Positions 4,626 through 31,205 of a DNA stretch of 36,796 bases are shown here, piece after piece. A program made the position numbers and the translations under genes. Position 1 is the stretch's first letter, and each line of letters begins with the position of its first letter. The stretch spans positions 1-36,796 of the IMG/VR virus record IMGVR_UViG_2537562172_000001, one strand, 5' to 3'. The DNA is from a virus. Taxonomy: Duplodnaviria; Heunggongvirae; Uroviricota; Caudoviricetes. The notes beneath the pieces were generated by a model, which saw only the letters and a program-made list of their open reading frames with translations, made no database searches and was not told the DNA's origin.

Positions 4626-7419
4626 TATCCGGGTCGCTTTCAGCGCCGTTGACAGACTGACCCGGCCTGCCGAAAACGCCCGCCGCCTGATGGGGCAGTT
4701 TGGTGACTCCATCCAGCGAACGCAGGGGGCGATCAAAAATCTCGAGCGTCAGGCGCGATCATTTGAGCGCGCCCGCGACGCTGTCAGTAAAGCGGATGCG
4801 GGCATCGTGAAAGCACGACGCCAGCTTAACGCCCTTAATCAGTTACAACGCACGGGTACAGTGCTCAGCGAAAAACAACAAAAACTGATGCAGCAGTTAA
4901 GCACCCGGCTTGAACGCCTGAATGAATCGCGTACACGGGAAATTCAGAAAATGCGGGAGCTTGGCGGAGAGCTGAAACGCCACGGCATTTCCCTGACAGG
5001 CAGCGATAACACCATCCAGCAGGCCATCAGACGCACCGAACAGTACAACAACCAGCTTGAACGCGAACGGCAGGCGCTTGCGCGTGTAACGCGGGCGCGT
5101 GAGCGGTATTCGCGCGCGCAGGAAACCGCGGGAAAACTGAAAACAGGTGGTGCGCTGGCAATTGGTGCGGCAGCGGCTGGCGGCTATGCTGCCGGGCGTT
5201 TTTTGCAGCCTGCGATCGGGTTCGGGAAAGAGATGTCCCGCGTTCAGGCACTGACGCGAATCGACAAAAACAGCCCGCAGTTTAAGGCGCTGCGTGAGCA
5301 GGCGTTAAAACTTGGCTCTGAAACGCAGTTCACCGCTGGAGATGCCGCCAGTGGACAGGCATTTCTTGCAATGGCGGGCTTCACACCGCAGGCCATTCAG
5401 GCTGCGCTTCCGGGCGTGCTGAGCATGGCAACGGCTGGCGGTATGGATCTCGGCGAGACGGCGGATATTGGCTCAAATATCCTGACGCAGTTCGGCCTTT
5501 CTGCTGACCAGATGGACCGGGTTGGCGACACGCTCACCGCAGCGTTTACCCGTACCAACACTGACCTTCGCGCACTGGGCGAAACCATGAAATATGCAGG
5601 TCCGGTGGCGGGTAAGCTGGGAATATCGCTGGAGCAGGCCGCAGCGATGGCGGGCGTGCTGGCGAATATGGGTATCAGAGGGAGTGATGCCGGGACGGCA
5701 ATGCGTGCCAGCCTGTCCCGCCTGGTAACACAGCCAAAGGCAACCGCTGATGCTCTGAAAGAGCTGGGGGTGGCTGTCTCTGATGCGAACGGCAAAATGC
5801 GCCCGATGGAGGATGTGCTGGCCGACCTTTATAAAGCCACCCGCAAATACGGGGAAGTTGACCGGGTATCCTTCTTTAAGGACATCGCCGGAGAAGAGGC
5901 TTTCACGTCATTTATGGCCCTCGTTGATGCGGCGGGTAACGGCTCCTTACCCAAACTGAGAAAAGAACTTGAGGGCGCACGCGGTGAGGCTGAACGCACG
6001 GCAAAGGTTATGGCCGACAACCTTGATGGCGACCTGAAATCACTCGGCAGTGCATGGGAAGGGTTGCGCATCCGCATTGCAGATCTGATTGACGGTCCGC
6101 TGCGTTCTGTCACGCAGTGGCTCACGCGGGTGGTCTCAAAGGTGACTGCGCTGGCGCAGGCCCATCCGGCACTGACGCGCCAGTTACTGATAGCGGGAGG
6201 CGCACTGCTGGCGACAACAGCAACGGTTGGTTCGTTGTCGCTGGTTATTGGGGTGCTTTACGGGAAGCTTGCCACCCTGCGTCTTGGTTTTGACATTCTT
6301 ACCCGGTCAATGAATGTCGTCAGGGTGTTGCCTGCGCTGTGGGGAATGGTGACGGGTTCCGTTTCTTTGCTGGGAGGCGCTATCGGGGCGCTGTTCAGTC
6401 CGGTTGGTCTTGTCGTGGCTGCGCTTGCCGGAGCTGCTGTTCTTATCTGGAAATACTGGGATCCCATCAGGGCATTTTTTGCCGGGGTGTTCAGCGGGAT
6501 TATGGAAAGGCTGACCCCGTTGCGCGAAACCTTTGAACGGTTTGGTCCTGTTTTTGACGCAATCGGAAGCGGGATCAGCCAGGTGTTTAACTGGTTTAAA
6601 TCGCTGTTGTCACCGATGGAGTCCAGCAAGGAAACGCTGGATAAATGTACCAGTGCTGGCGAGATATTCGGTAACGTTCTTGGTGGTGCGTTACAACTTG
6701 TTCTGACACCTGCAAAAATGCTACTGGATACGCTGGCGTGGATACTTGAAAAACTTGGCGTCCTTCCGGATGAAGCGGAAAGGGCGCGCAAGAAAATCGA
6801 AGACGCACAGCGTGCGGCCATTCTTCAGGACAAGGTTGCCTTACTTCAGGGGGACCTGGCGAAAATCAATCCGCCGAAGCCTGTGGAAAATGGCAATGGC
6901 ACCGGAGGTGATAAACCCAAAGACAACAAACCGCTTACAGACAGCAATACCGGGACGCTACGCAGACTCAGCAAAATTGCTGATAACACAGGTAAGCTGG
7001 TTGATGAGACGAAAAAACGCATTGGCCCCGGCGATATTGTCTTTAAGAACCTGCCCCGCGCACTTGCTGTTCGTGGGGAGTGGCAGGAGCGGAAGATTGC
7101 GCAGGTCAGTAAGCCTGCCCCCGCAATTAATATCACACCCGTGGTCCCGGCTCCGCTGCCTCCGGCGCTGGTCCCTGTTGTTGCGGCCAGCTCCCGCCCG
7201 GTGGCGGAGGCCATACGATCTCCAGTGGCATCAGTTCCTGTAACTTCCCGTAACCGGGAGCCTGTTGCCTCCGGATTTGGTGGTGAAATTCATGTTCATC
7301 TGCATAACGTTGTTACGCAGAATCCCCGCGAACTGGCGAAACTGGTCGGTGAAATGGTCAGGGCAGAAATGGAACGGCGCGCCCGTGCCGGACGTGGCAG
7401 TTTTTACGATAAAGATTGA
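4576..7419 (+). CDS. T: Tail tape measure protein
   Basis: 947-aa ORF with coiled-coil-rich N-terminal half and Gly/Ala-rich hydrophobic central segments; sits between E/E' and U. True start may be the ATG at 4603 or 4612 rather than the GTG at 4576. Confidence 0.9.
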   Translation: MSGRHFAAGMQTMKTLDIRVAFSAVDRLTRPAENARRLMGQFGDSIQRTQGAIKNLERQARSFERARDAVSKADAGIVKARRQLNALNQLQRTGTVLSEKQQKLMQQLSTRLERLNESRTREIQKMRELGGELKRHGISLTGSDNTIQQAIRRTEQYNNQLERERQALARVTRARERYSRAQETAGKLKTGGALAIGAAAAGGYAAGRFLQPAIGFGKEMSRVQALTRIDKNSPQFKALREQALKLGSETQFTAGDAASGQAFLAMAGFTPQAIQAALPGVLSMATAGGMDLGETADIGSNILTQFGLSADQMDRVGDTLTAAFTRTNTDLRALGETMKYAGPVAGKLGISLEQAAAMAGVLANMGIRGSDAGTAMRASLSRLVTQPKATADALKELGVAVSDANGKMRPMEDVLADLYKATRKYGEVDRVSFFKDIAGEEAFTSFMALVDAAGNGSLPKLRKELEGARGEAERTAKVMADNLDGDLKSLGSAWEGLRIRIADLIDGPLRSVTQWLTRVVSKVTALAQAHPALTRQLLIAGGALLATTATVGSLSLVIGVLYGKLATLRLGFDILTRSMNVVRVLPALWGMVTGSVSLLGGAIGALFSPVGLVVAALAGAAVLIWKYWDPIRAFFAGVFSGIMERLTPLRETFERFGPVFDAIGSGISQVFNWFKSLLSPMESSKETLDKCTSAGEIFGNVLGGALQLVLTPAKMLLDTLAWILEKLGVLPDEAERARKKIEDAQRAAILQDKVALLQGDLAKINPPKPVENGNGTGGDKPKDNKPLTDSNTGTLRRLSKIADNTGKLVDETKKRIGPGDIVFKNLPRALAVRGEWQERKIAQVSKPAPAINITPVVPAPLPPALVPVVAASSRPVAEAIRSPVASVPVTSRNREPVASGFGGEIHVHLHNVVTQNPRELAKLVGEMVRAEMERRARAGRGSFYDKD

Positions 7420-7425
7420 GGAGTC

Positions 7426-7920
7426 ATGGCCATGATGATGATCTACGGCATGTTTGTTTTTGAGCTGCGCACATTGCCGCATCAGCAGTTACAGCAAAAC
7501 AAAAGCTGGCGGCATGTGAAAAATGAACGCGTTAACCGCTCAGCAAGCTGGCAGTATATCGGTGCAGGTGATGATCGCATCGTGCTTTCCGGCGTGCTTT
7601 ATCCTGAAATTACAGGTGGCGAAGTGTCGCTTTCGTTGCTGACCACGCAGGCGTATACAGGACGCCCCTGGCCTCTGATTGATGGTGTCGGGCAGATTTA
7701 CGGCATGTATGTACTGACTGAAACGAATACGACCCGCTCCGAGTTTGATCGCTACGGTAAGGCGAAAAAGATAGAATTTTCACTGACCCTTGAACGCTGT
7801 GATGAGGATTTGCGGGAGCGCCTGCAATCCTCATCGTTCAGCGATATGCTGTCCGGCTTCAAAGATAAGGTGACATCATCTCTTAACAGCGCGGCCAGTT
7901 CAGTTAAAGGGCTGTTCTGA
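7426..7920 (+). CDS. U: Tail protein U
   Basis: 164-aa ORF immediately after the tape measure gene; size and position match P2 gpU. Confidence 0.8.
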   Translation: MAMMMIYGMFVFELRTLPHQQLQQNKSWRHVKNERVNRSASWQYIGAGDDRIVLSGVLYPEITGGEVSLSLLTTQAYTGRPWPLIDGVGQIYGMYVLTETNTTRSEFDRYGKAKKIEFSLTLERCDEDLRERLQSSSFSDMLSGFKDKVTSSLNSAASSVKGLF

Positions 7921-7931
7921 TTTAACACAAA

Positions 7932-7967
7932 AACCGCTAATGGTCAGATTAGCGGTTATTTTGTTTT
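7932..7967. terminator. Bidirectional rho-independent terminator between the tail operon and the invertase gene
   Basis: Stem aaccgctaat / attagcggtt with 6-nt loop, then ATTTTGTTTT on the plus strand and an A-rich run upstream (T-run for the minus strand). The invertase stop lies in the hairpin. Confidence 0.6.
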
Positions 7968-24896: not shown

Positions 24897-25507
24897 AGAA
24901 CAGCCTCCATTGATTTCTTTGCTCGTATTTTGCACTTATGAAGTGTGGTCGGCAAGGTGCCGCATCACTGACGCGCTTCGCTTGTCTGCTGCTTCGCCGG
25001 GGCATAAAAAATTTATGCCCCGACTCTCCAGCTCCTGTATCAATCAGATAATTTCACGACGTCTTCCGACTTATCGCTATCATCGACGGCCAGACTCTTA
25101 CACAATCCCGCCGCGCTGACTGCATGTTCTCGCCGCCTCAGTGCGATTTTGACGGCCTTACCTTTCATCCCATCAAATCAGAACACCTTACGTCTTTTTC
25201 ACGCTCAGCGTGAGCGATACAGCCATTCTGTTGTGTCGCTGCGACATCGTTCAGGGAATGCTATTTACCCCCTGAAACGCGGGCTGTTCCCCCGTCACCT
25301 GCGCGCAGAAAAAACGCGTTTTTTGTGCACGTACGGATCCTTGATGGATCCAGCTGCCATGCGGGCCTGAAGGGTAAAAAGTCGTTCAAAAAAATTGTGC
25401 AAATTTGTGCACAATCTTGCATTAAAATCAACGTTCAGTGGATGTATTTAAGCGAAAAAAAAGATCTTTGTATAATTTCGTTCGGTTACGTTGGTGAGAG
25501 GTTCTGA

Positions 25508-25909
25508 GTGAAAGACATCACATATTGGAATGATAAAATTCAGAAACAAATTGATAGTTATCCTGAAGCTGTTCGAGAAAGGATAAATTTTGAGCTTGTT
25601 GCACTGCAGAGCGATTGTCCTCATTCTTTCGACAGTTTCGATTTTCCAGTGGATGGTGATGATGCCTTGGGGGTTCCACCTGCTCAAAAAAAATCAATGC
25701 GGGAAACGATTGGTCGCTACGCAATGCAATTAACCATCAAGAGTAGTGATTCTTATCGTATGATTTACGTTGCGAAATTTGCGGAGTCTGTTTACATACT
25801 TCATACATTTAAGAAAAAGACAAATGGTGTGTCAAAAAAAGAATATGAGACAGCTGCCGCAAGATACAAACAATTAGTGGAGTATCGTCGTAAAAATGGC
25901 TTAAGATAG
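25508..25909 (+). CDS. RelE/ParE-superfamily toxin, Gp49/HigB-like
   Basis: C-terminal region YRMIYVAKFAESVYILHTFKKKTNGVSKKEYETAAARYKQ fits the Gp49-like (HigB) pattern. GTG start. Immediately followed by an XRE HTH gene. Confidence 0.65.
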   Translation: MKDITYWNDKIQKQIDSYPEAVRERINFELVALQSDCPHSFDSFDFPVDGDDALGVPPAQKKSMRETIGRYAMQLTIKSSDSYRMIYVAKFAESVYILHTFKKKTNGVSKKEYETAAARYKQLVEYRRKNGLR

Positions 25910-25979
25910 CTTGCAGGTATCTCAAATCTGATATAACATAATCAATGTCAGCAACATCGCTGATTAAGGCTGGAGAGTT

Positions 25980-26297
25980 ATGGAATTCGTCGTAGTCAAA
26001 AACCCTTATGCGTCATCAAGTAGCTCTGTAAATGAAGCTAGTGATAAACACATCCGGGCCCAATTAATGGTTATTATCCGAAAAATGATTCAGGAGCGCG
26101 GTCTTACCCAGCGAGAAGCTGCTGAATTGCTGGAAACAACCCAACCAAGAGTAAGCGAAATCATTAATGGTAAGTTAGATAATCATACCATTGATCGACT
26201 GTTTATCATGCTAAACATCCTGGGGTGGGATTTTAAGTTTGGGTATTCCGGTGGGGTTGTTACTGCGACGGCAGAACATTCCTGTCAGGTTGCATAA
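25980..26297 (+). CDS. XRE-family HTH antitoxin (HigA-like)
   Basis: Helix-turn-helix segment LTQREAAELLETTQPRVSEIINGK, 105 aa, directly downstream of the toxin-like gene and followed by a terminator. Confidence 0.65.
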   Translation: MEFVVVKNPYASSSSSVNEASDKHIRAQLMVIIRKMIQERGLTQREAAELLETTQPRVSEIINGKLDNHTIDRLFIMLNILGWDFKFGYSGGVVTATAEHSCQVA

Positions 26298-26304
26298 ATA
26301 TTAA

Positions 26305-26337
26305 GCCCCTGACGGGGCCAACCGTCAGGGGCTTTTC
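26305..26337. terminator. Rho-independent terminator after the toxin-antitoxin pair
   Basis: Stem gcccctgacgg / ccgtcaggggc with 6-nt loop, followed by TTTTC. Confidence 0.65.
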
Positions 26338-26462
26338 AACACAAAGAAATGATAGTCTGAGAAATATCATCACCTTGATGTTTTGCATGTACAACTGTGA
26401 TTCTAGTCAATCCAGGCAGATAATCAAGGTAAAAATCATTCTCAGTAAGGAGGTGATTATGG

Positions 26463-26612
26463 ATGGCTTTGAAATCAATTGTAAAAAAACCGGCTCCGAA
26501 AGGATTTCGTTGGCAGTTTTGCCGATACCGTAAGGTTCGTGGTGATTCTGGTCGAAAGCTGGATGCTCATGAGTATGGCTGGAAAGCTTGGGCGTTTCTA
26601 GTGCGAAGCTGA
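26463..26612 (+). CDS. Small basic hypothetical protein (49 aa), not in ORF track
   Basis: AGGAGG about 8 nt upstream of the ATG at 26463. Translation MALKSIVKKPAPKGFRWQFCRYRKVRGDSGRKLDAHEYGWKAWAFLVRS. Followed by a terminator hairpin. Confidence 0.4.
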   Translation: MALKSIVKKPAPKGFRWQFCRYRKVRGDSGRKLDAHEYGWKAWAFLVRS

Positions 26613-26623
26613 TATTTGATATT

Positions 26624-26652
26624 TAAAAGCATGGCGAAAGCCATGCTTTTTG
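26624..26652. terminator. Bidirectional terminator between the small ORF and parR-like gene
   Basis: Stem aaagcatggc / gccatgcttt with GAAA loop, followed by TTT; A-run upstream. Confidence 0.6.
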
Positions 26653-26655
26653 TGA

Positions 26656-26970
26656 TCATTCAGGAAAAAATTCCTGAATATTCTTTTTTATTTGACTTAT
26701 ATTCTGATTTTTGCAACCAACAGGCTCGCTGTTATGCCAGCCCCATATGTGATTGTTGGCAGGCATATTTTCCCCCTCTGACCATTCAGCCAGCCAGTAA
26801 GCAAAGGCAGGATCGTTTTTAATGAGTGCCAGTCCAGCCAGAAATGCCGCGCGTTGCGCGCGGCTGCGTTCGGAGGCTGGCAGGCTGTCGAGATAATTAC
26901 ACGCTTCCCGTTCACTCTTGACTGCAGCTGGCTTCAGATAGAAACTTATCCGTCTGGTTGGTGTCGTCAT
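26656..26970 (-). CDS. parR: ParR-like centromere-binding adaptor (ribbon-helix-helix)
   Basis: From the Met at 26970: MTTPTRRISFYLKPAAVKSEREACNYLDSLPASERSRAQRAAFLAGLALIKNDP resembles R1 ParR (..FKLNPDVNQTDKIVCDTLDSIPQGERSRLNRAALTAGLALYRQDP, recalled from memory). AAGGAG SD; start lies 4 nt after the parM stop. Confidence 0.7.
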   Translation of the reverse strand: MTTPTRRISFYLKPAAVKSEREACNYLDSLPASERSRAQRAAFLAGLALIKNDPAFAYWLAEWSEGENMPANNHIWGWHNSEPVGCKNQNISQIKKNIQEFFPE

Positions 26971-26974
26971 TGGT

Positions 26975-27934
26975 TTACTCCTTGTCCATTGCGTACAGCC
27001 CATTAACCAGAGCAAACTGTGGCACCCCGTCCGCGATGAAAGTCGCATTAACTCCGCAGGCTTCGCGGATAGCGGGTGCCACAATCTCCGCCCCGCCACC
27101 GACAACCATCACCCGCCCGTAACCCGAAAAACCCGCCAGCGCGCGGATCACGCGTTGTTTCAGTGTTTCTTCCTTTTCACGAATAACCGCCATCAGGCTG
27201 GCGTAATGCGCGTCATTGTGGATGTGCTGGCGCAGCCAGGCTTCATCATGGCGATGTTCGATAATGGTATTGGCGATGTGGTGACTGGTGCGCATACCGT
27301 TAGTGGCCATCACCGACAGTACGGCATCGGCCATCAGAGAAACGCCTACGTGTGGATCGCAAAACACCTGGCTGATACCTGCCAGTTGTCCCTGAACCTT
27401 TGCCACATCCAGCGTGGTTCCGCCTAAATCCACAATCAGCAGGGATTCAAACGGACTCATGTCAGCCAGTGCTTTAAAGCCAGCCGGAATGGATTCAGGC
27501 ATAACCCGTACGTTACGGATAGTGAATGCTTCGCCGTTCTGGTACTCCACCGGGCGCATGACGTTCGCTTTTTTGCGGTTGATGTTGGCCATGTCCGGCT
27601 GTGCGTTTGTGTCGAAATACTCGCTCAGTGGCAGGGTGACAACCACATCCACTTCCTGTGGTGTGATGCCTGATTTGACCAGCGCGTGATGAATGGCGAT
27701 TACATTCACATCGCTGTACTGGTATTGCGTGTCAGTCGTCTGGACAAAGCGATCGCTGACCGGATCAAAGCCATAGCGCACGCCATCAAGCATGTAGTTC
27801 GCGGGATGCGTGCCACCGAACGGCGCAGACCATTCCGACTTGAAGCTGTTCGGGCTGATGGCGTTGCGGCGTTCGCCGTTCTCAGTCCATGCCAGCTTGA
27901 TGTTGGTGGAGCCGTCGTCGATACAAATTTTCAT
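26975..27934 (-). CDS. parM: ParM/StbA-like actin-fold ATPase (type II plasmid partition NTPase)
   Basis: 319 aa. MKICIDDGSTNIKLAW (phosphate-1 motif), SPNSFK, YQYSDVNV..HHAL, TLPLSEY, RKKANV, VMPESIPAG and LIVDLGGTTLDV (phosphate-2 motif) align along the whole length with R1 ParM as recalled. Confidence 0.85.
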   Translation of the reverse strand: MKICIDDGSTNIKLAWTENGERRNAISPNSFKSEWSAPFGGTHPANYMLDGVRYGFDPVSDRFVQTTDTQYQYSDVNVIAIHHALVKSGITPQEVDVVVTLPLSEYFDTNAQPDMANINRKKANVMRPVEYQNGEAFTIRNVRVMPESIPAGFKALADMSPFESLLIVDLGGTTLDVAKVQGQLAGISQVFCDPHVGVSLMADAVLSVMATNGMRTSHHIANTIIEHRHDEAWLRQHIHNDAHYASLMAVIREKEETLKQRVIRALAGFSGYGRVMVVGGGAEIVAPAIREACGVNATFIADGVPQFALVNGLYAMDKE

Positions 27935-27963
27935 GTCGCTTTTCCTTATGTTGATTAATTAAT

Positions 27964-28077
27964 CGTTTACAGGATTCTGAAATCCCGCTCTTGCCTGTTT
28001 TGTGCGCGCTTCATATATCGCGGCACGTTTTTTGCTCATTTACGGGATTTGTGAATCCCGTTTCTGTCTGTTTTTTG
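27964..28077. repeat. parC-like centromere/operator candidate: two ~40-bp direct repeats, each containing an inverted repeat
   Basis: Copy 1 cgtttacaggattctgaaatcccgctcttgcctgttttgtg and copy 2 catttacgggatttgtgaatcccgtttctgtctgttttttg lie upstream of parM. Copy 2 sits within the last codons of gene A. Confidence 0.45.
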
Positions 28078-30833
28078 TTTCCACTGGTCAGGCTACCCCG
28101 CAGCAGGTCTGCTTTGCGGCGGGCGCGTTCAGTTGTTTCACTGATTCTCTGTGCGTGCTCTGCGTCGCGGATGGCGCGTAGCATGTCAGAAAGTACGGTA
28201 ACGGGTGTTTTCATGGTGTTCTGGTCTTGCTGAAGTGTGGATGCCAGGCGTGCGGCGGCTTCAGGGGCTGATGCCCCTAGTTGTTCCAGATAGCTGGCGA
28301 CCGGGTTATGGCGGATCTCCGTGCTGCTTACGCCGTGATTACGACTCAGGCGTTGCCAGAGCTGCGTGATTCGGCTGTCCGGGCGGGTATCCGGTTTGCG
28401 TACAATTTCAAATCCCTGCGGTGCAATGATGCTGCCGTCAACGTACAGGCTGCCGCCCCGTAACAGGTGCTGCATCTGCTGTTCACCGATATGCAGGCCG
28501 AGAGATTCAGCAGACTCCCGCCATTCTTTAGCGAGTAACTCGTGGTTATCAGGCAAAGGCCGTGGCTGTTTGCGGCTCTGTGTCCAGTTCTGCATTTCAT
28601 CACTGCTGTTTTTTGCCTGTTTGTCACGAAGCGAACGCATCAGCGCCCGGCGTTCGTGCCGTTTCAGTGAGCGCATCCATTCGTTCACTTCAACGCCGTC
28701 AGGGAGCTGCGGCCACGGTGCTGGCCGTTCTTTCGGCTGTTCTGTCCCGTTGTTGTCCGTTTCCTGTACACGGGGACAGTTATTGCCACGAGTCCAAGGG
28801 GCGGCAGGGCCGCCCTGAAGGTCAAAACCATTTTCACGGGCGCTGTCTTCCGCTTCCGGTTTACGTCTTACCAGCTTCCAGTTATCCGGGTGCGTGCACA
28901 CGCGGGAAGACTCCCCAATGAGCGGCGACCAGATCCCGTAAATCTGTACGCTCTGTTCGCCGTAATCGTTCAGCTCATCTGCGAGGTCGTAGGCGGTGCG
29001 AATCAGGTAGTCTTTGCGTGGAACAAGTACGCCGCCCTGTTTCTCAATGTAGGTGGCAAAACATCCGGCATCAGCGGCAGCAAGAACCGCGTCCATTGCG
29101 TCATCCTTCAGCCGTTGCGGGCCTTCCGGGTTGCGTGCCATCTGGCTGGCAAGGCGGCGGAGTTCACGCCACACCTGACGGGAGGGGATACCAAAGAACT
29201 GGAACTGGCGGACACGGTGAAGGCGCGCCCAGCCGATGGCGCGTTCCACGCTCTCGGCCATTGATTTTCCGGTTTCGTGGTCAACGCGTGGCTTGCCCGT
29301 TTTCGGGTCGATGCCATCCACGGCGCGGCTGTCCAGGTTTTTTCCGATGTAGGTGGCGATGTAGCTGGTTGGCGTGCCTTTTGAGCCGTCGACGTACTCC
29401 GCCTTAAAACGCGGAGTAATATCATCGCCCAGCTCGTGACGATCTTCCTGAATGGCAATATCGCGGGTGTGGGACACAATGGTGTCGATTTCTTCCGGAT
29501 GTGCAAAGACCATCATATGCCAGTGCACGGTGCCGTCATGGTGAGGCTCCACCGTGCGGATGCCATACCAGCGCAGGCCGTCGCGGTTCAGTTTTTTGCG
29601 GACCGCCGCAAAAAACGTGTTAACCAGGTAATCGCTGGAGTCGCGCATGGTGGCCCCGTTCCATTTGGGATTCGGATGACCGTTCTCTGTTGTGGCGTGG
29701 TATTTTGACGGGCAGGTGACAGTCAGAAACACCGCTTTGTCGCCACGGGCTTCGGCCAGAAGTTCCAGCCCTTTCATGGTAGCCATCATTTCTGCCTTAC
29801 GGTGAACCGGGTTACTTACTCCCGCGTAATACACCGTCTCGAGATCAATCGTGAACCCGTCTTCGTTTTCCAGCATGAAACTTTTCAGGAAATCGCGTGT
29901 TTTCTCGCGCTGTGCGCGAAACTCGCTTAACGCGTCCTGGCTCAGATAGGGCGATGTTTTTCTGGAAACCAGACAGGCGGCGCGGAGTTGTTCTTCTCTC
30001 CACTCGCAACGTAACAGCCACAGTTTGCGTTTCCACCATTCTGCACAGGTCAGGCGAAGGATTGCGCCCGGCAGCAGCTCCGTGTCCGGTTCGTTCCTCC
30101 GGTCTTTGTCTGTTGTCAGTGCGTCATAATGTGGAGGCATGGCGTGCAGGTGTAACGCCATGCGGGCCAGCATCTGATACGCCTTCAGGGTTACATCCAT
30201 GGTCAGCTCGCCATCGGTCGAGCCAAAGCCATCGCAGAGTTTTTCGAAGGTGCTGCTGAACATCGCCGCCGTCATGGTGGCCAGCGTCTGTATCTGGTGT
30301 TTGTTGAGCTGCGGCAGGTAAAGCAAATCGTCCAGGCGTTCGCGTCCGGCAAGGGAGCGATAACCCGGTGTCAGCCAGCGGTGATCGGTGCGCTCCAGAC
30401 GTTCGAATATTTTGCGCAGGGTCCCACGCGCATAGCGTTCTGCCTGCCTGGCGTTTTTTCCTTTCTGACGATCGGCTTCCTGTTTTTTGCGCAGGAAGGA
30501 GAGGTGGCGAATAAGCGGATCTCGCAGATAGGACGGCAGCAGGCGCAGCGAGGCCATGGCTTCATCCACCGCGCCGCGTGCCTGTTTTCTGGCGTCTCCT
30601 GCCAGTGTGATGGTTTTGTCCTGTTTTTCCTGTGCGTCCAGGCTTTTATTAATCAGGTTGCCCAGCGGCGTGGCGGAGAACGCCGCATCAGCCATTTCCT
30701 GGCGGCGCTCGTTCTCTACCCGGTAGGCATCCAGCCAGGAGGAAAGCGCGGATTCAGGAGCGGGGATCCCCGTTCCTTCACGCCCCACTGCGTGGCGCGG
30801 TTGTTGCCAGTCCCTGATGTACTCCGTTGACAT
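28011..30833 (-). CDS. A: Replication gene A protein (rolling-circle replication initiator endonuclease)
   Basis: Contains VFLTVTCPSKYH, RTVEPHHDGTVHWHMMVF and YIATYIGKNLD, paralleling P2 gpA motifs (ITLTAPSKYH, VVEPHHDGTPHWHMMLF, YIAKYISKNIDG). 940 aa from the first Met; start uncertain. Confidence 0.9.
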   Translation of the reverse strand: MSTEYIRDWQQPRHAVGREGTGIPAPESALSSWLDAYRVENERRQEMADAAFSATPLGNLINKSLDAQEKQDKTITLAGDARKQARGAVDEAMASLRLLPSYLRDPLIRHLSFLRKKQEADRQKGKNARQAERYARGTLRKIFERLERTDHRWLTPGYRSLAGRERLDDLLYLPQLNKHQIQTLATMTAAMFSSTFEKLCDGFGSTDGELTMDVTLKAYQMLARMALHLHAMPPHYDALTTDKDRRNEPDTELLPGAILRLTCAEWWKRKLWLLRCEWREEQLRAACLVSRKTSPYLSQDALSEFRAQREKTRDFLKSFMLENEDGFTIDLETVYYAGVSNPVHRKAEMMATMKGLELLAEARGDKAVFLTVTCPSKYHATTENGHPNPKWNGATMRDSSDYLVNTFFAAVRKKLNRDGLRWYGIRTVEPHHDGTVHWHMMVFAHPEEIDTIVSHTRDIAIQEDRHELGDDITPRFKAEYVDGSKGTPTSYIATYIGKNLDSRAVDGIDPKTGKPRVDHETGKSMAESVERAIGWARLHRVRQFQFFGIPSRQVWRELRRLASQMARNPEGPQRLKDDAMDAVLAAADAGCFATYIEKQGGVLVPRKDYLIRTAYDLADELNDYGEQSVQIYGIWSPLIGESSRVCTHPDNWKLVRRKPEAEDSARENGFDLQGGPAAPWTRGNNCPRVQETDNNGTEQPKERPAPWPQLPDGVEVNEWMRSLKRHERRALMRSLRDKQAKNSSDEMQNWTQSRKQPRPLPDNHELLAKEWRESAESLGLHIGEQQMQHLLRGGSLYVDGSIIAPQGFEIVRKPDTRPDSRITQLWQRLSRNHGVSSTEIRHNPVASYLEQLGASAPEAAARLASTLQQDQNTMKTPVTVLSDMLRAIRDAEHAQRISETTERARRKADLLRGSLTSGNKKQTETGFTNPVNEQKTCRDI

Positions 30834-30839
30834 GCTGAC

Positions 30840-31205
30840 TTACTCCGCTTTGCCGCTCAGTGCGGCGTGGCAGACGGCAGCCAGCCGCTGAATTTCCAGC
30901 ACGGTGTCTTCTGTGTCGGCATGGCGATGTGTGATGCGGATGCTGTCGGCAATCACATCGACGATTGCAGAAGATGGGCGCTGGTAAATGCCAATAACGG
31001 ACGGGGTGCCACCTTCAATGCGGTAAAGCCTGTAATTTCCCTCGTGGCTGTCAATCATGTAGCGGCCATCAATAACAATCTTTCCGTCAGCGAGCTGCGG
31101 TACAGGCAGGGATTTCAGGTACATGTCATAACGATCACGCACGCGAGCGGCAAGATCACGCTCTGTGTTGAGCAGGTATTCAAGAAAGTCGTTGGCGAGA
31201 ATCAT
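30840..31205 (-). CDS. Hypothetical early-operon protein (121 aa) upstream of A
   Basis: Compact ORF ending 6 nt before the A start, in the position of P2 orf82/orf83. Confidence 0.55.
   Translation of the reverse strand: MILANDFLEYLLNTERDLAARVRDRYDMYLKSLPVPQLADGKIVIDGRYMIDSHEGNYRLYRIEGGTPSVIGIYQRPSSAIVDVIADSIRITHRHADTEDTVLEIQRLAAVCHAALSGKAE

What the first reader, a model, noticed from the sequence alone, without database searches (positions are those of the whole stretch)
27964..28077. parC-like repeats overlap the 3' end of replication gene A
The second 40-bp repeat copy lies inside the last ~20 codons of A (encoding ...ETGFTNPVNEQKTCRDI), so a centromere/operator-like element is superimposed on the replication initiator C-terminus. 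This may mark the insertion junction of the partition cassette and may have altered the A C-terminus relative to relatives.
Basis: seen in the sequence. Interest (0 to 1): 0.45.

Follow-up and report, generated by a model that had tools for sequence, protein, structure and literature searches.

The report
Partition-site repeats run into phage gene A
Two 42-base repeats just upstream of a plasmid-type segregation operon (parM-parR) in a common P2-like E. coli prophage are most likely its centromere/operator; the outer repeat is read as the last ~20 codons of the replication gene A because the segregation cassette was joined directly onto that gene, an ordinary but neatly resolved piece of phage mosaicism.

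Summary
Two 42-nt repeats (27963-28004 and 28036-28077, 31/42 identical, 73 nt apart) each carry a dyad, CGGGATT-N4-AATCCCG. They flank the stop codon of gene A (28011-28013) and lie directly upstream of R1-type parM/parR. The window is a P88-like (Xuanwuvirus) P2-family prophage, present in about 25% of complete E. coli genomes.

- Relatives with the same A gene but other cargo lose strong similarity at 28111. They keep only a weak ...LL(R/Q)..G..(E/N)KK tail up to an A-run (~28066-28076), then differ. One stops at the A-run.
- Relatives with a different upstream ORF but the same par cassette become homologous exactly at 28075, the outer edge of the repeat.
- Frameshift variants and the lack of third-codon-position bias show the tail peptide is unconstrained, while the dyad DNA is conserved.
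- Hafnia and Plesiomonas P2-like phages (ParM 62-63% identical) keep two GGG-N10-CCC dyads at the same positions and spacing. These again overlap unrelated upstream ORFs.

The repeats are not the P2-type ori (about 700 nt upstream), not a known RNA, and are absent from true plasmids. The cassette is already noted in the literature; the parC anatomy and the in-gene junction are new detail. ParR binding is untested.

The parts
28036..28077 (-). Upstream parC arm (repeat copy 2), read in frame as gene A codons 919-933 (…NKKQTETGFTNPVNE…). Its core dyad is CGGGATT-TGTG-AATCCCG at 28043-28060.
   Evidence: It has the lowest variability of the region, 5/42 variable sites among 77 haplotypes. The equivalent GGG-N10-CCC dyad lies at -125 to -131 from the parM ATG in the P88-type, Hafnia and Plesiomonas phages.
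27963..28004 (-). Downstream parC arm (repeat copy 1), intergenic. Its dyad is at 27970-27987 (here CAGGATT-CTGA-AATCCCG on the + strand). One arm base is mutated in this window; the dyad is perfect in most relatives.
   Evidence: The equivalent dyad lies at -52 to -59 in relatives.
28005..28035 (-). 31-nt spacer between the two arms. It contains the last 7 sense codons and the TGA stop of gene A (28011-28013). No consensus sigma-70 promoter was detected in it.
   Evidence: It is the most variable segment, 9/22 coding sites.
28066..28076 (-). A-run (AAAAAACAGAC on the sense strand) at the outer edge of copy 2. It is the mosaic boundary between gene A and the cargo, and the only sequence shared by all junction types.
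   Evidence: Homology to L041/L083 starts at 28075/28076. L213's A stops at this A-run.
28078..28110 (-). Weakly conserved linker of the A tail (DLLRGSLTSGN), lying between the strongly conserved A C-terminal domain and the cargo boundary.
   Evidence: Megablast homology to non-par relatives ends at 28111. A residual ...LL(R/Q)..G..(E/N)KK pattern remains. Variable sites number 11/33 with no third-position bias.
28011..30833 (-). Replication initiator gene A (940 aa, P2 gpA family).
   Evidence: Pfam PF05840, E=2.2e-131. It is 31% identical to P2 gpA over residues 77-744.
26975..27934 (-). parM, the actin-like segregation ATPase.
   Evidence: Pfam StbA_N, E=3e-82, and the ParM C-terminal domain, E=1e-68. 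PDB 1MWK (R1 ParM), E=1.6e-92.
26659..26970 (-). parR, a ribbon-helix-helix adaptor of 103 aa. It has an N-terminal strand TRRISFYLKP and a C-terminal KKNIQEFFPE that aligns with the R1 ParR C-terminus.
   Evidence: Pfam Plasmid_stab_B, E=9.5e-26. PDB 2JD3 (pB171 ParR/StbB), E=0.0035. Alignment.
27951..27962 (.). Perfect 12-bp palindrome GATTAATTAATC between copy 1 and the parM ribosome-binding site. The core ATTAATCAA is conserved in the Hafnia and Plesiomonas relatives. It is a candidate -10 region or a further operator.
   Evidence: I2; best ad hoc promoter TTCAGA-16-ATTAAT, only 8/12.
28775..28805 (-). Context: homologue of the P2 ori nick-site sequence, inside gene A (residues ~676-686) and about 700 nt upstream of the repeats.
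   Evidence: The P2 record annotates the nick at 29892.

Best explanation
The two 42-nt repeats are the cis-acting site (parC: centromere and probably operator) of an R1-type ParMR actin-like partition cassette. The cassette sits in the gpA-gpQ cargo hotspot of a P88-like P2-family prophage.

Each arm carries a dyad, CGGGATT-N4-AATCCCG (minimal conserved core GGG-N10-CCC). The two dyads are 73 bp apart, about seven helical turns and so on the same face of the DNA, at -125 and -52 from the parM start.

Inferred mechanism:
- Ribbon-helix-helix ParR dimers bind the two dyads through the N-terminal strand TRRISFYLKP.
- The C-terminal KKN-x3-FPE peptide of bound ParR captures growing ParM filaments, as in R1.
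- The same binding may autoregulate parMR.

Shown here: the cassette's left boundary is the outer edge of the upstream arm. It abuts gene A with no stop codon of A's own in between. Translation of A therefore runs ~19-21 codons into parC and ends at a TGA in the inter-arm spacer. The resulting tail (QTETGFTNPVNEQKTCRDI) is a by-product of the junction, not a conserved part of the initiator. Selection acts on the DNA dyads, not on the peptide.

There is no terminator and no clear promoter between A and parM, so parMR is probably at least partly co-transcribed with A (inferred).
For: Identity of the genes.

Bipartite layout like plasmid parC:
- the R1-type has two blocks of 11-nt iterons 94 nt apart; pOXA-48 blocks are 73 nt apart; IncFIA blocks are 61 nt apart.
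- PMC2241845: R1 parC is two sets of five 11-bp iterons flanking the promoter, bound by ParR.

Co-inheritance with the cassette:
- L041/L083 have a different A C-terminal domain plus an unrelated 155-aa ORF, yet are homologous to the window from 28075 onward. Their ORF ends in the same tail...KKQTKTGFTNPVNEQKTRRDI*.
- L082/L084/L212 (Dam methylase + AAA ATPase cargo) and L213 (AAA + S8 peptidase cargo) have the same A up to 28111, no dyads, and different or shorter tails.

DNA-level rather than protein-level constraint:
- About 7 of 84 relatives carry frameshifts that move the A stop to -133, -105, -101, -65 or -24 from parM while keeping the repeats.
- Variable sites by codon position are 20/14/102 in parM and 17/19/48 in the A C-terminal domain, but 10/6/9 in the tail.
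- Copy 2 is the least variable segment, and variation within the dyads falls mostly in the N4 spacer.

Deep conservation:
- Hafnia (ParM 62% identical) has GGGATTGAGGAAACCC at -128 and GGGTTCATTAAATCCC at -55.
- Plesiomonas (63%) has GGGACAACAAAAACCC at -131 and GGGACAACACTAACCC at -59.
- In both cases the flanks are otherwise diverged, the ParR N-terminal strands are near-identical, and the upstream dyad(s) lie inside unrelated ORF ends.
- The background density of GGG-N10-CCC is about 1-2 per 11 kb.
Against: - No binding, stabilisation or incompatibility data exist; ParR-dyad recognition is inferred.
- The site lacks the defining R1 feature of tandem 11-bp direct iterons: TRF finds no array and autocorrelation shows only the 73-nt lag.
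- Two dyads may be too few for an R1-like ParR ring.
- No consensus promoter lies between or near the arms, so the operator role is uncertain.
- In 5,426 complete E. coli genomes, 1,521 of 1,523 copies are chromosomal, so there is no obvious need for a centromere. The cassette could serve another purpose.
- In this window the downstream dyad has one arm mismatch.
- The Serratia/Enterobacter members of the clade use a different arrangement, so the comparative support rests on three lineages.
Confidence: 0.75

Rival explanations
1. The dyads are ParR operators only. The cassette in these integrated prophages no longer works as a centromere. It has been retained for another role, such as incompatibility or exclusion of plasmids or phages with related par sites, or positioning of replicating phage DNA during lytic growth.
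For: 1,521 of 1,523 copies in complete E. coli genomes are chromosomal. The cassette sits in a hotspot otherwise filled with defence cargo (PMC9122126). There are only two dyads rather than ten iterons.
Against: parM shows strong purifying selection (20/14/102). ParR keeps the C-terminal ParM-contact motif. The dyad spacing and position are conserved to 62% ParM identity. All of this is as expected for a working ParMRC machine. One complete P88-like genome is deposited as a 34.5-kb circular plasmid record.
Confidence: 0.15
2. The repeats act at the RNA level. Their 8-bp hairpins would serve as terminators, attenuators or processing sites between gene A and parM, or as terminators for antisense transcription.
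For: Each copy folds into an 8-bp hairpin of -9.5 to -11 kcal/mol (z = -3.6 for the copy 2 sense strand). On the + (antisense) strand, the copy 2 hairpin is followed by a T-rich run and is flagged as terminator-like.
Against: On the sense strand neither hairpin is followed by a U-tract. Copy 1 is no more stable than shuffles (z = -1.15 sense, +0.49 antisense). In Plesiomonas the dyads keep only GGG/CCC ends with an A-rich 10-nt interior, and cannot form a comparable stem. There is no Rfam match. Nothing on the + strand needs terminating here.
Confidence: 0.05
3. The repeats belong to the phage replication or recombination apparatus. They would be accessory ori elements or A-protein binding sites at the 3' end of A, or signals that promote cargo exchange at the hotspot.
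For: In P2 the ori lies inside gene A, so cis elements inside A have precedent. The outer edge of copy 2 coincides with a recurrent recombination boundary.
Against: The homologue of the P2 nick site lies at ~28775-28805, 700 nt upstream. Phages with the same A but other cargo lack the dyads entirely, so A does not need them. The repeats accompany parMR behind unrelated upstream ORFs.
Confidence: 0.03

Closest known systems
parC of plasmid R1 (ParMRC, type II partition; Dam & Gerdes 1994; PMC2241845)
   Same: It lies directly upstream of parM-parR. It has two repeat blocks separated by a spacer (115 bp here, 159 bp in R1). The sense strand is A/C-rich, with an AAACCC-like half-site (AAATCCC here). 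The ParM is 47% identical. ParR has a homologous RHH domain and C-terminal motif. Both share a CATAAGGA ribosome-binding context.
   Different: There are no tandem 11-bp direct iterons. Each block instead has one 16-18-bp dyad plus conserved flanks. No recognisable promoter lies in the spacer; the spacer instead holds the stop codon of the upstream gene. The upstream block is inside a coding sequence. The element is chromosomally integrated in a prophage.
parC regions of IncL/M (pOXA-48), IncFIA and IncI plasmids, the closest plasmid ParMs (~52% identity)
   Same: All are bipartite repeat blocks upstream of parM. The pOXA-48 blocks are 73 nt apart, as here.
   Different: Their blocks are made of 10-nt T-rich direct sub-repeats with no GGG-N10-CCC dyads. 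blastn finds no sequence similarity between the P88 parC and any true plasmid.
gpA-gpQ cargo hotspot of P2-like phages (tin/old locus; Rousset et al. 2022, PMC9122126)
   Same: It is the same locus. That paper already reports that about a quarter of E. coli P2-like phages carry a putative plasmid-partition system there. Here 1,364 of 5,426 genomes match.
   Different: That work treats the hotspot as lying between the genes. Here the left breakpoint is mapped inside the A ORF (28066-28111), so cargo exchange rewrites the last 14-35 codons of A. The cis site of the partition system is also identified.
P2 ori inside gene A
   Same: It is a cis-acting DNA element embedded in the coding sequence of the same replication gene.
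   Different: It is a different element at a different place (~28790 against 28036-28077). The ori is part of the conserved A core. The parC arm is cargo DNA that A reads into.
Partition systems of prophage-plasmids P1, P7 and N15 (ParABS type I)
   Same: These are temperate phages carrying a plasmid-style segregation module with an adjacent centromere (from general knowledge, not tested here).
   Different: They use a Walker-type ParA/ParB with parS rather than actin-like ParM/ParR. Those phages are obligate plasmids in lysogeny. P88-like phages carry an integrase and are found integrated.

Membership tests
Type II (ParMRC, R1-like) partition locus | An actin-like ParM ATPase gene | tested here: met
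   Pfam StbA_N, E=3.4e-82, and the ParM C-terminal domain, E=1.3e-68. R1 ParM structure 1MWK, E=1.6e-92 over residues 2-316.
Type II (ParMRC, R1-like) partition locus | A small ribbon-helix-helix ParR gene immediately downstream of parM | tested here: met
   Pfam Plasmid_stab_B, E=9.5e-26. pB171 ParR 2JD3, E=0.0035. 44% identical to R1-type ParR over residues 6-67. The gene starts 4 nt after the parM stop.
Type II (ParMRC, R1-like) partition locus | A repeat-containing cis site (parC) directly upstream of parM | tested here: met
   Two 42-nt repeats lie at -30 to -143 from the parM ATG. They are conserved in position in relatives with 62-63% ParM identity.
Type II (ParMRC, R1-like) partition locus | ParR binds parC, and the locus stabilises a plasmid | not testable with these tools
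   This needs EMSA or footprinting and a plasmid-loss assay.
R1-type parC architecture specifically | Two sets of five tandem 11-bp direct iterons | tested here: not met
   TRF finds no tandem array. Autocorrelation of the region peaks only at lag 73 and not at 10-11, unlike the R1-type and IncFIA regions. Each block holds one inverted dyad instead.
R1-type parC architecture specifically | The par promoter lies in the spacer between the two repeat sets | tested here: inconclusive
   The consensus scan finds no sigma-70-like site in 27700-28400. The best ad hoc candidate, TTCAGA-16-ATTAAT (8/12), overlaps the downstream dyad rather than the spacer. No transcript data are available.
P2 gpA family replication initiator (for the overlapped gene) | A Phage_GPA catalytic domain and an internal ori nick-site homologue | tested here: met
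   PF05840, E=2.2e-131, residues 179-503. 31% identity to P2 gpA over residues 77-744. The nick-site sequence is conserved at ~28775-28805.
Intrinsic terminator | A GC-rich stem followed by a U-tract on the transcribed (minus) strand | tested here: not met
   No minus-strand terminator-like site was found. The sense-strand hairpins are followed by GUAAAUGA and GUAAACGA.

The most novel reading that the evidence does not exclude
P88-like P2-family phages use a minimal two-dyad centromere, two GGG-N10-CCC sites seven helical turns apart rather than ten iterons. This drives ParM-dependent segregation of an extrachromosomal phage genome, giving these integrase-bearing phages a facultative plasmid (carrier or pre-integration) state. 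Because parC begins inside gene A and no promoter or terminator separates them, ParR loading on the upstream dyad could also feed back on completion of A transcription or translation. That would couple replication-initiator supply to partition-complex assembly.
Probability: 0.15. Interest if true: 0.6.

Novelty: new member of a known kind. Interest (0 to 1): 0.35.

Why it matters
About a quarter of complete E. coli genomes, including O157:H7 Sakai prophage Sp13, carry this cassette, yet its cis site was unannotated. Pinning parC to two conserved dyads gives a defined target for asking whether these integrating P2-like phages can also live as plasmids, as Rousset et al. suggested. It also offers a compact centromere to compare with the ten-iteron R1 paradigm.

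The junction mapping shows that cargo exchange at the P2 gpA-gpQ hotspot happens inside the A reading frame. Each cargo therefore gives the essential replication initiator a different, evidently dispensable, C-terminal tail. This is a caution for annotation and for clustering gpA proteins, and a concrete example of a cis element overprinted by read-through translation.

Tried and rejected
- P2 gpA as a comparator for the A C-terminus: similarity ends at residue ~744 of 940, so it says nothing about the last 20 codons. tblastn of the last 297 aa against 50,697 phage records found full-length matches only in Xuanwuvirus phages that all carry parM.
- The same repeats in plasmid parC regions: blastn (word 11) of the 146-nt parC against 72,556 plasmids hit only P88-like prophage sequence. 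The four plasmid parC regions inspected share layout but not sequence.
- The search for related loci with ParM in IMG/VR and GTDB genomes returned only relatives at or above 98% identity, too close for footprinting. Deeper relatives came from the protein search.
- Ori hypothesis: rejected, because the nick-site homologue is 700 nt away.
- Terminator or RNA-element hypothesis: no sense-strand U-tract, no Rfam hit.
- 11-bp iteron sub-structure inside the 42-nt blocks: not supported.
- Promoter between the arms: none found.
- The 155-aa ORF of L041 and the 167-aa ORF of Hafnia, both reading into parC, are unrelated to each other and have no Pfam domain.
- One motif search used a 17-nt pattern by mistake and is disregarded.
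- L083 turned out to be a duplicated or chimeric contig, so L041 was used as the clean example.

Full report
**What the window is**

The 36.8-kb window is a P88-like (genus Xuanwuvirus, Peduoviridae) P2-family prophage. The region 26000-31000 is 94-97% identical to phages P88, P884B11, 520873 and Citrobacter phiSM. The P88 record annotates the same gene order: replication endonuclease, ParM, partition protein.

On the minus strand the window encodes:
- Gene A (28011-30833, 940 aa; Pfam Phage_GPA, E=2e-131).
- parM (26975-27934; StbA_N plus the ParM C-terminal domain; R1 ParM structure 1MWK, E=1.6e-92).
- parR (26659-26970; Plasmid_stab_B, E=9.5e-26; pB171 ParR 2JD3, E=0.0035).

**The observation**

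The repeat finder gives one direct-repeat family: 27963-28004 and 28036-28077, 42 nt, 31/42 identical, 73 nt apart. In 1000 dinucleotide shuffles of the 206-nt region, the best 42-mer pair averaged 22.2 matches and never exceeded 27.

Each copy holds a dyad GGGATT-N4-AATCCC, at 28044-28059 and 27971-27986 (one mismatch). These are the only two hits in the window, against 0.13 expected.

The A stop codon (28011-28013) lies in the 31-nt spacer. Copy 2 is read as codons 919-933 (NKKQTETGFTNPVNE).

**What it is not**

- It is not the ori. P2's annotated nick site lies in the sequence GCCGCGCCT/CGGAGTCCTGTCAATAACTGT. That sequence aligns with window ~28775-28805 (A residues ~676-686), 700 nt upstream of the repeats.
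- It is not a sense-strand terminator. The 8-bp hairpins are not followed by U-tracts, copy 1 is no more stable than shuffles, and only the antisense strand of copy 2 looks terminator-like.
- It matches no Rfam family.
- It is not a tandem iteron array.

**The junction test**

P2 itself cannot answer this, because similarity to P2 gpA ends at residue ~744. Close relatives can.

A protein search with the A C-terminus found variants with other tails. Their contigs resolve three further junction types.

1. L082, L084 and L212 have the same A followed by a Dam-type methylase and an AAA_15/21 ATPase, with no parMR. Homology to the window runs to 28111 and resumes only at 25421, next to the portal gene. 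The tail is ...RRKATLLQKRGKQHFSNQNDDEKKQLQSWICLFHHEG*.
2. L213 has the same A followed by an AAA ATPase and an S8 peptidase. The break is again at 28111, and the tail is ...RHKAGLLQDKGNSEKKK*.
3. L041 (clean) and L083 (duplicated contig) have a different A C-terminal domain (A is 871 aa) plus an unrelated 155-aa ORF, followed by the same parC-parM-parR. Homology to the window resumes at 28075/28076, one or two bases inside the outer edge of copy 2. The 155-aa ORF ends ...EKKQTKTGFTNPVNEQKTRRDI*.

A four-way alignment shows that the only element common to all junctions is an A-run (GA[A/G]AAAAA[C/T]A) at ~28066-28076. It is preceded in the three A-type tails by a weak ...LL(R/Q)..G..(E/N)KK pattern.

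So the cargo boundary is the A-run. A's own tail ends about there (L213 stops at it). In par-type phages the ORF simply continues 19-21 codons into parC until a TGA.

In an IMG/VR sample anchored on the conserved A sequence just upstream, about 100 loci were par-type and 9 were methylase/ATPase-type. All broke at the same nucleotide.

**DNA constraint versus peptide constraint**

Among 84 relatives, about 7 carry frameshifts in the tail, often in the homopolymer runs. These move the stop to -133, -105, -101, -65 or -24 from parM while the repeats persist.

Among 77 distinct haplotypes, the variable sites by codon position are:

| Segment | Position 1 | Position 2 | Position 3 |
|---|---|---|---|
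| parM | 20 | 14 | 102 |
| A C-terminal domain | 17 | 19 | 48 |
| Last 32 codons of A | 10 | 6 | 9 |

Copy 2 is the least variable segment (5/42), compared with 11/33 and 9/22 for its neighbours. Within the dyads the variable positions are mainly the N4 spacer and the innermost arm bases. The outer GGG/CCC triplets are nearly invariant; the mismatch at 27971 in this window is shared by only 10 of 77 haplotypes.

**Deeper comparison**

The nearest true plasmid ParMs are only ~52% identical (pOXA-48 IncL/M, IncFIA, IncI; R1-type 47%). ParMs at 54-63% identity are all in P2-like prophages, at the same locus after gpA.

| Lineage | ParM identity | Upstream dyad | Downstream dyad | Spacing | Upstream ORF and its stop |
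|---|---|---|---|---|---|
| P88-type | – | -125 | -52 | 73 | gpA, stop at -76 |
| Hafnia | 62% | GGGATTGAGGAAACCC at -128 | GGGTTCATTAAATCCC at -55 | 73 | unrelated 167-aa ORF, stop at -44, so both dyads lie inside or overlap it |
| Plesiomonas | 63% | GGGACAACAAAAACCC at -131 | GGGACAACACTAACCC at -59 | 72 | gpA (55% identical over 1-696, unrelated C-terminus), stop at -103, so the upstream dyad is in its last 10 codons |

GGG-N10-CCC occurs only 1-2 times per 11 kb by chance.

The three ParRs share the N-terminal strand TRR(I/V)SFYL(K/N)P. The Serratia/Enterobacter subclade (NRKISFYLKP) instead has one long inverted repeat ending in GGGAAC...GTTCCC, with no overlap with gpA.

All these ParRs end in KKN-x3-LFP(E/D), which aligns with the C-terminus of R1 ParR. 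From memory of the R1 literature, not tested here, that C-terminus is the ParM-binding peptide.

**Comparison with known parC**

R1 parC is 159 bp: two sets of five 11-bp direct iterons around a 39-bp promoter spacer, bound by one ParR dimer per iteron (PMC2241845). Plasmid regions inspected here confirm a bipartite layout, with block spacing of 94 nt in the R1-type, 73 nt in pOXA-48 and 61 nt in IncFIA.

The phage element shares the position, the bipartite layout and an AAA(T/C)CCC-like half-site. It has dyads instead of iteron arrays and no detectable promoter in the spacer. It has no sequence match in any true plasmid.

It therefore works like parC and belongs to a ParMRC locus, but it is not an R1-architecture parC.

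**Prior knowledge and novelty**

Rousset et al. 2022 already noted that about a quarter of E. coli P2-like phages carry a putative partition system in the gpA-gpQ hotspot, and suggested plasmid-like maintenance. Here, 1,364 of 5,426 complete genomes match, and 1,521 of 1,523 copies are chromosomal.

New here are the identification and anatomy of the cis site, its conservation across genera, and the mapping of the hotspot's left breakpoint inside the A reading frame.

**Mechanism: what is shown and what is inferred**

- Shown: the repeats, their dyads, and their conservation and co-inheritance with parMR. Also shown are the mosaic boundary, the read-through origin of the A tail, and its lack of protein-level constraint.
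- Inferred: ParR binds the dyads, the complex captures ParM filaments, it may autoregulate, and parMR is co-transcribed with A.
- Unknown: why an integrating prophage keeps a centromere.

**Verdict**

The element is a new member of a known kind, of moderate interest.

Noticed in passing
window 25508-25909 (+) and 25980-26297 (+): This is a convergent two-gene pair in the same cargo hotspot: a Gp49/DUF891 (HigB-like toxin) protein (E=3e-13) followed by an HTH_37/XRE protein (E=8e-19). It looks like a toxin-antitoxin or addiction module next to the partition cassette. The segment (25434-26781) is not shared with phage P88.
   Followed up: partly
window 26659-26970 (parR), breakpoint near 26782: DNA homology to P88 and several relatives stops inside parR at 26782 (codon ~63). 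The window's ParR is only 54% identical to P88 ParR although ParM is ~99% identical. The first 18 residues (the DNA-reading strand) and the C-terminal NIxxxFPE motif are kept, while the helices and linker differ. The right edge of the conserved par segment therefore also lies inside a gene.
   Followed up: partly
window 28076-28597 (A residues ~746-919): The C-terminal domain of A is itself a swappable module. In L041 it is replaced by a different 125-aa C-terminus plus a 155-aa cysteine-rich ORF. The left breakpoint, at 28597, coincides with the point where similarity to P2 gpA (residue 744) and to Plesiomonas gpA (residue 696) ends, just after the ori.
   Followed up: partly
window 28066-28076 and 28026-28031 (homopolymer A-runs in the A tail): Several natural relatives differ by plus or minus one A in these runs. 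This shifts the A stop codon to five other positions between -133 and -24 from parM. The runs may be slippage-prone and generate alternative A C-termini.
   Followed up: partly
window 27951-27962: A perfect 12-bp palindrome, GATTAATTAATC, lies between the downstream dyad and the parM ribosome-binding site. The core ATTAATCAA is conserved in the Hafnia and Plesiomonas relatives. It may be the -10 region of a weak parM promoter or another protein site.
   Followed up: partly
L093 (NZ_CP148288.1, whole record): A complete P88-like genome of 34,461 bp, with integrase, cox, A, parM, parR and all the structural genes, is deposited as a circular 'plasmid' of an E. coli isolate from a cat. It could be a genuine episomal form or an excised or induced circle captured by assembly.
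   Followed up: no
L083 (JZQA01000170.1) 5694-7943: This contig carries two copies of the A-3'-end/parC/parM-5' segment, one behind the 155-aa ORF and one behind a P88-type A end, with parM interrupted. It is either a tandem or recombinant prophage or an assembly chimera.
   Followed up: no
L217 4870-4945 and L220 3875-3950: The Serratia and Enterobacter P2-like phages have related ParMR (54-58% ParM identity) with a differently built upstream site. It is a ~65-nt inverted repeat, GGGAAC..ATAGAAAAAT-N27-ATTTTTCT..GTTCCC, plus short direct repeats. In Enterobacter the cassette is separated from gpA by a methylase gene.
   Followed up: partly
window 26621-26646 (-): A hairpin, GCATGGC-TTTC-GCCATGC, followed by TTTTAAAT lies 13 nt after the parR stop. 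It looks like the operon's intrinsic terminator, although the consensus scan did not flag it.
   Followed up: no
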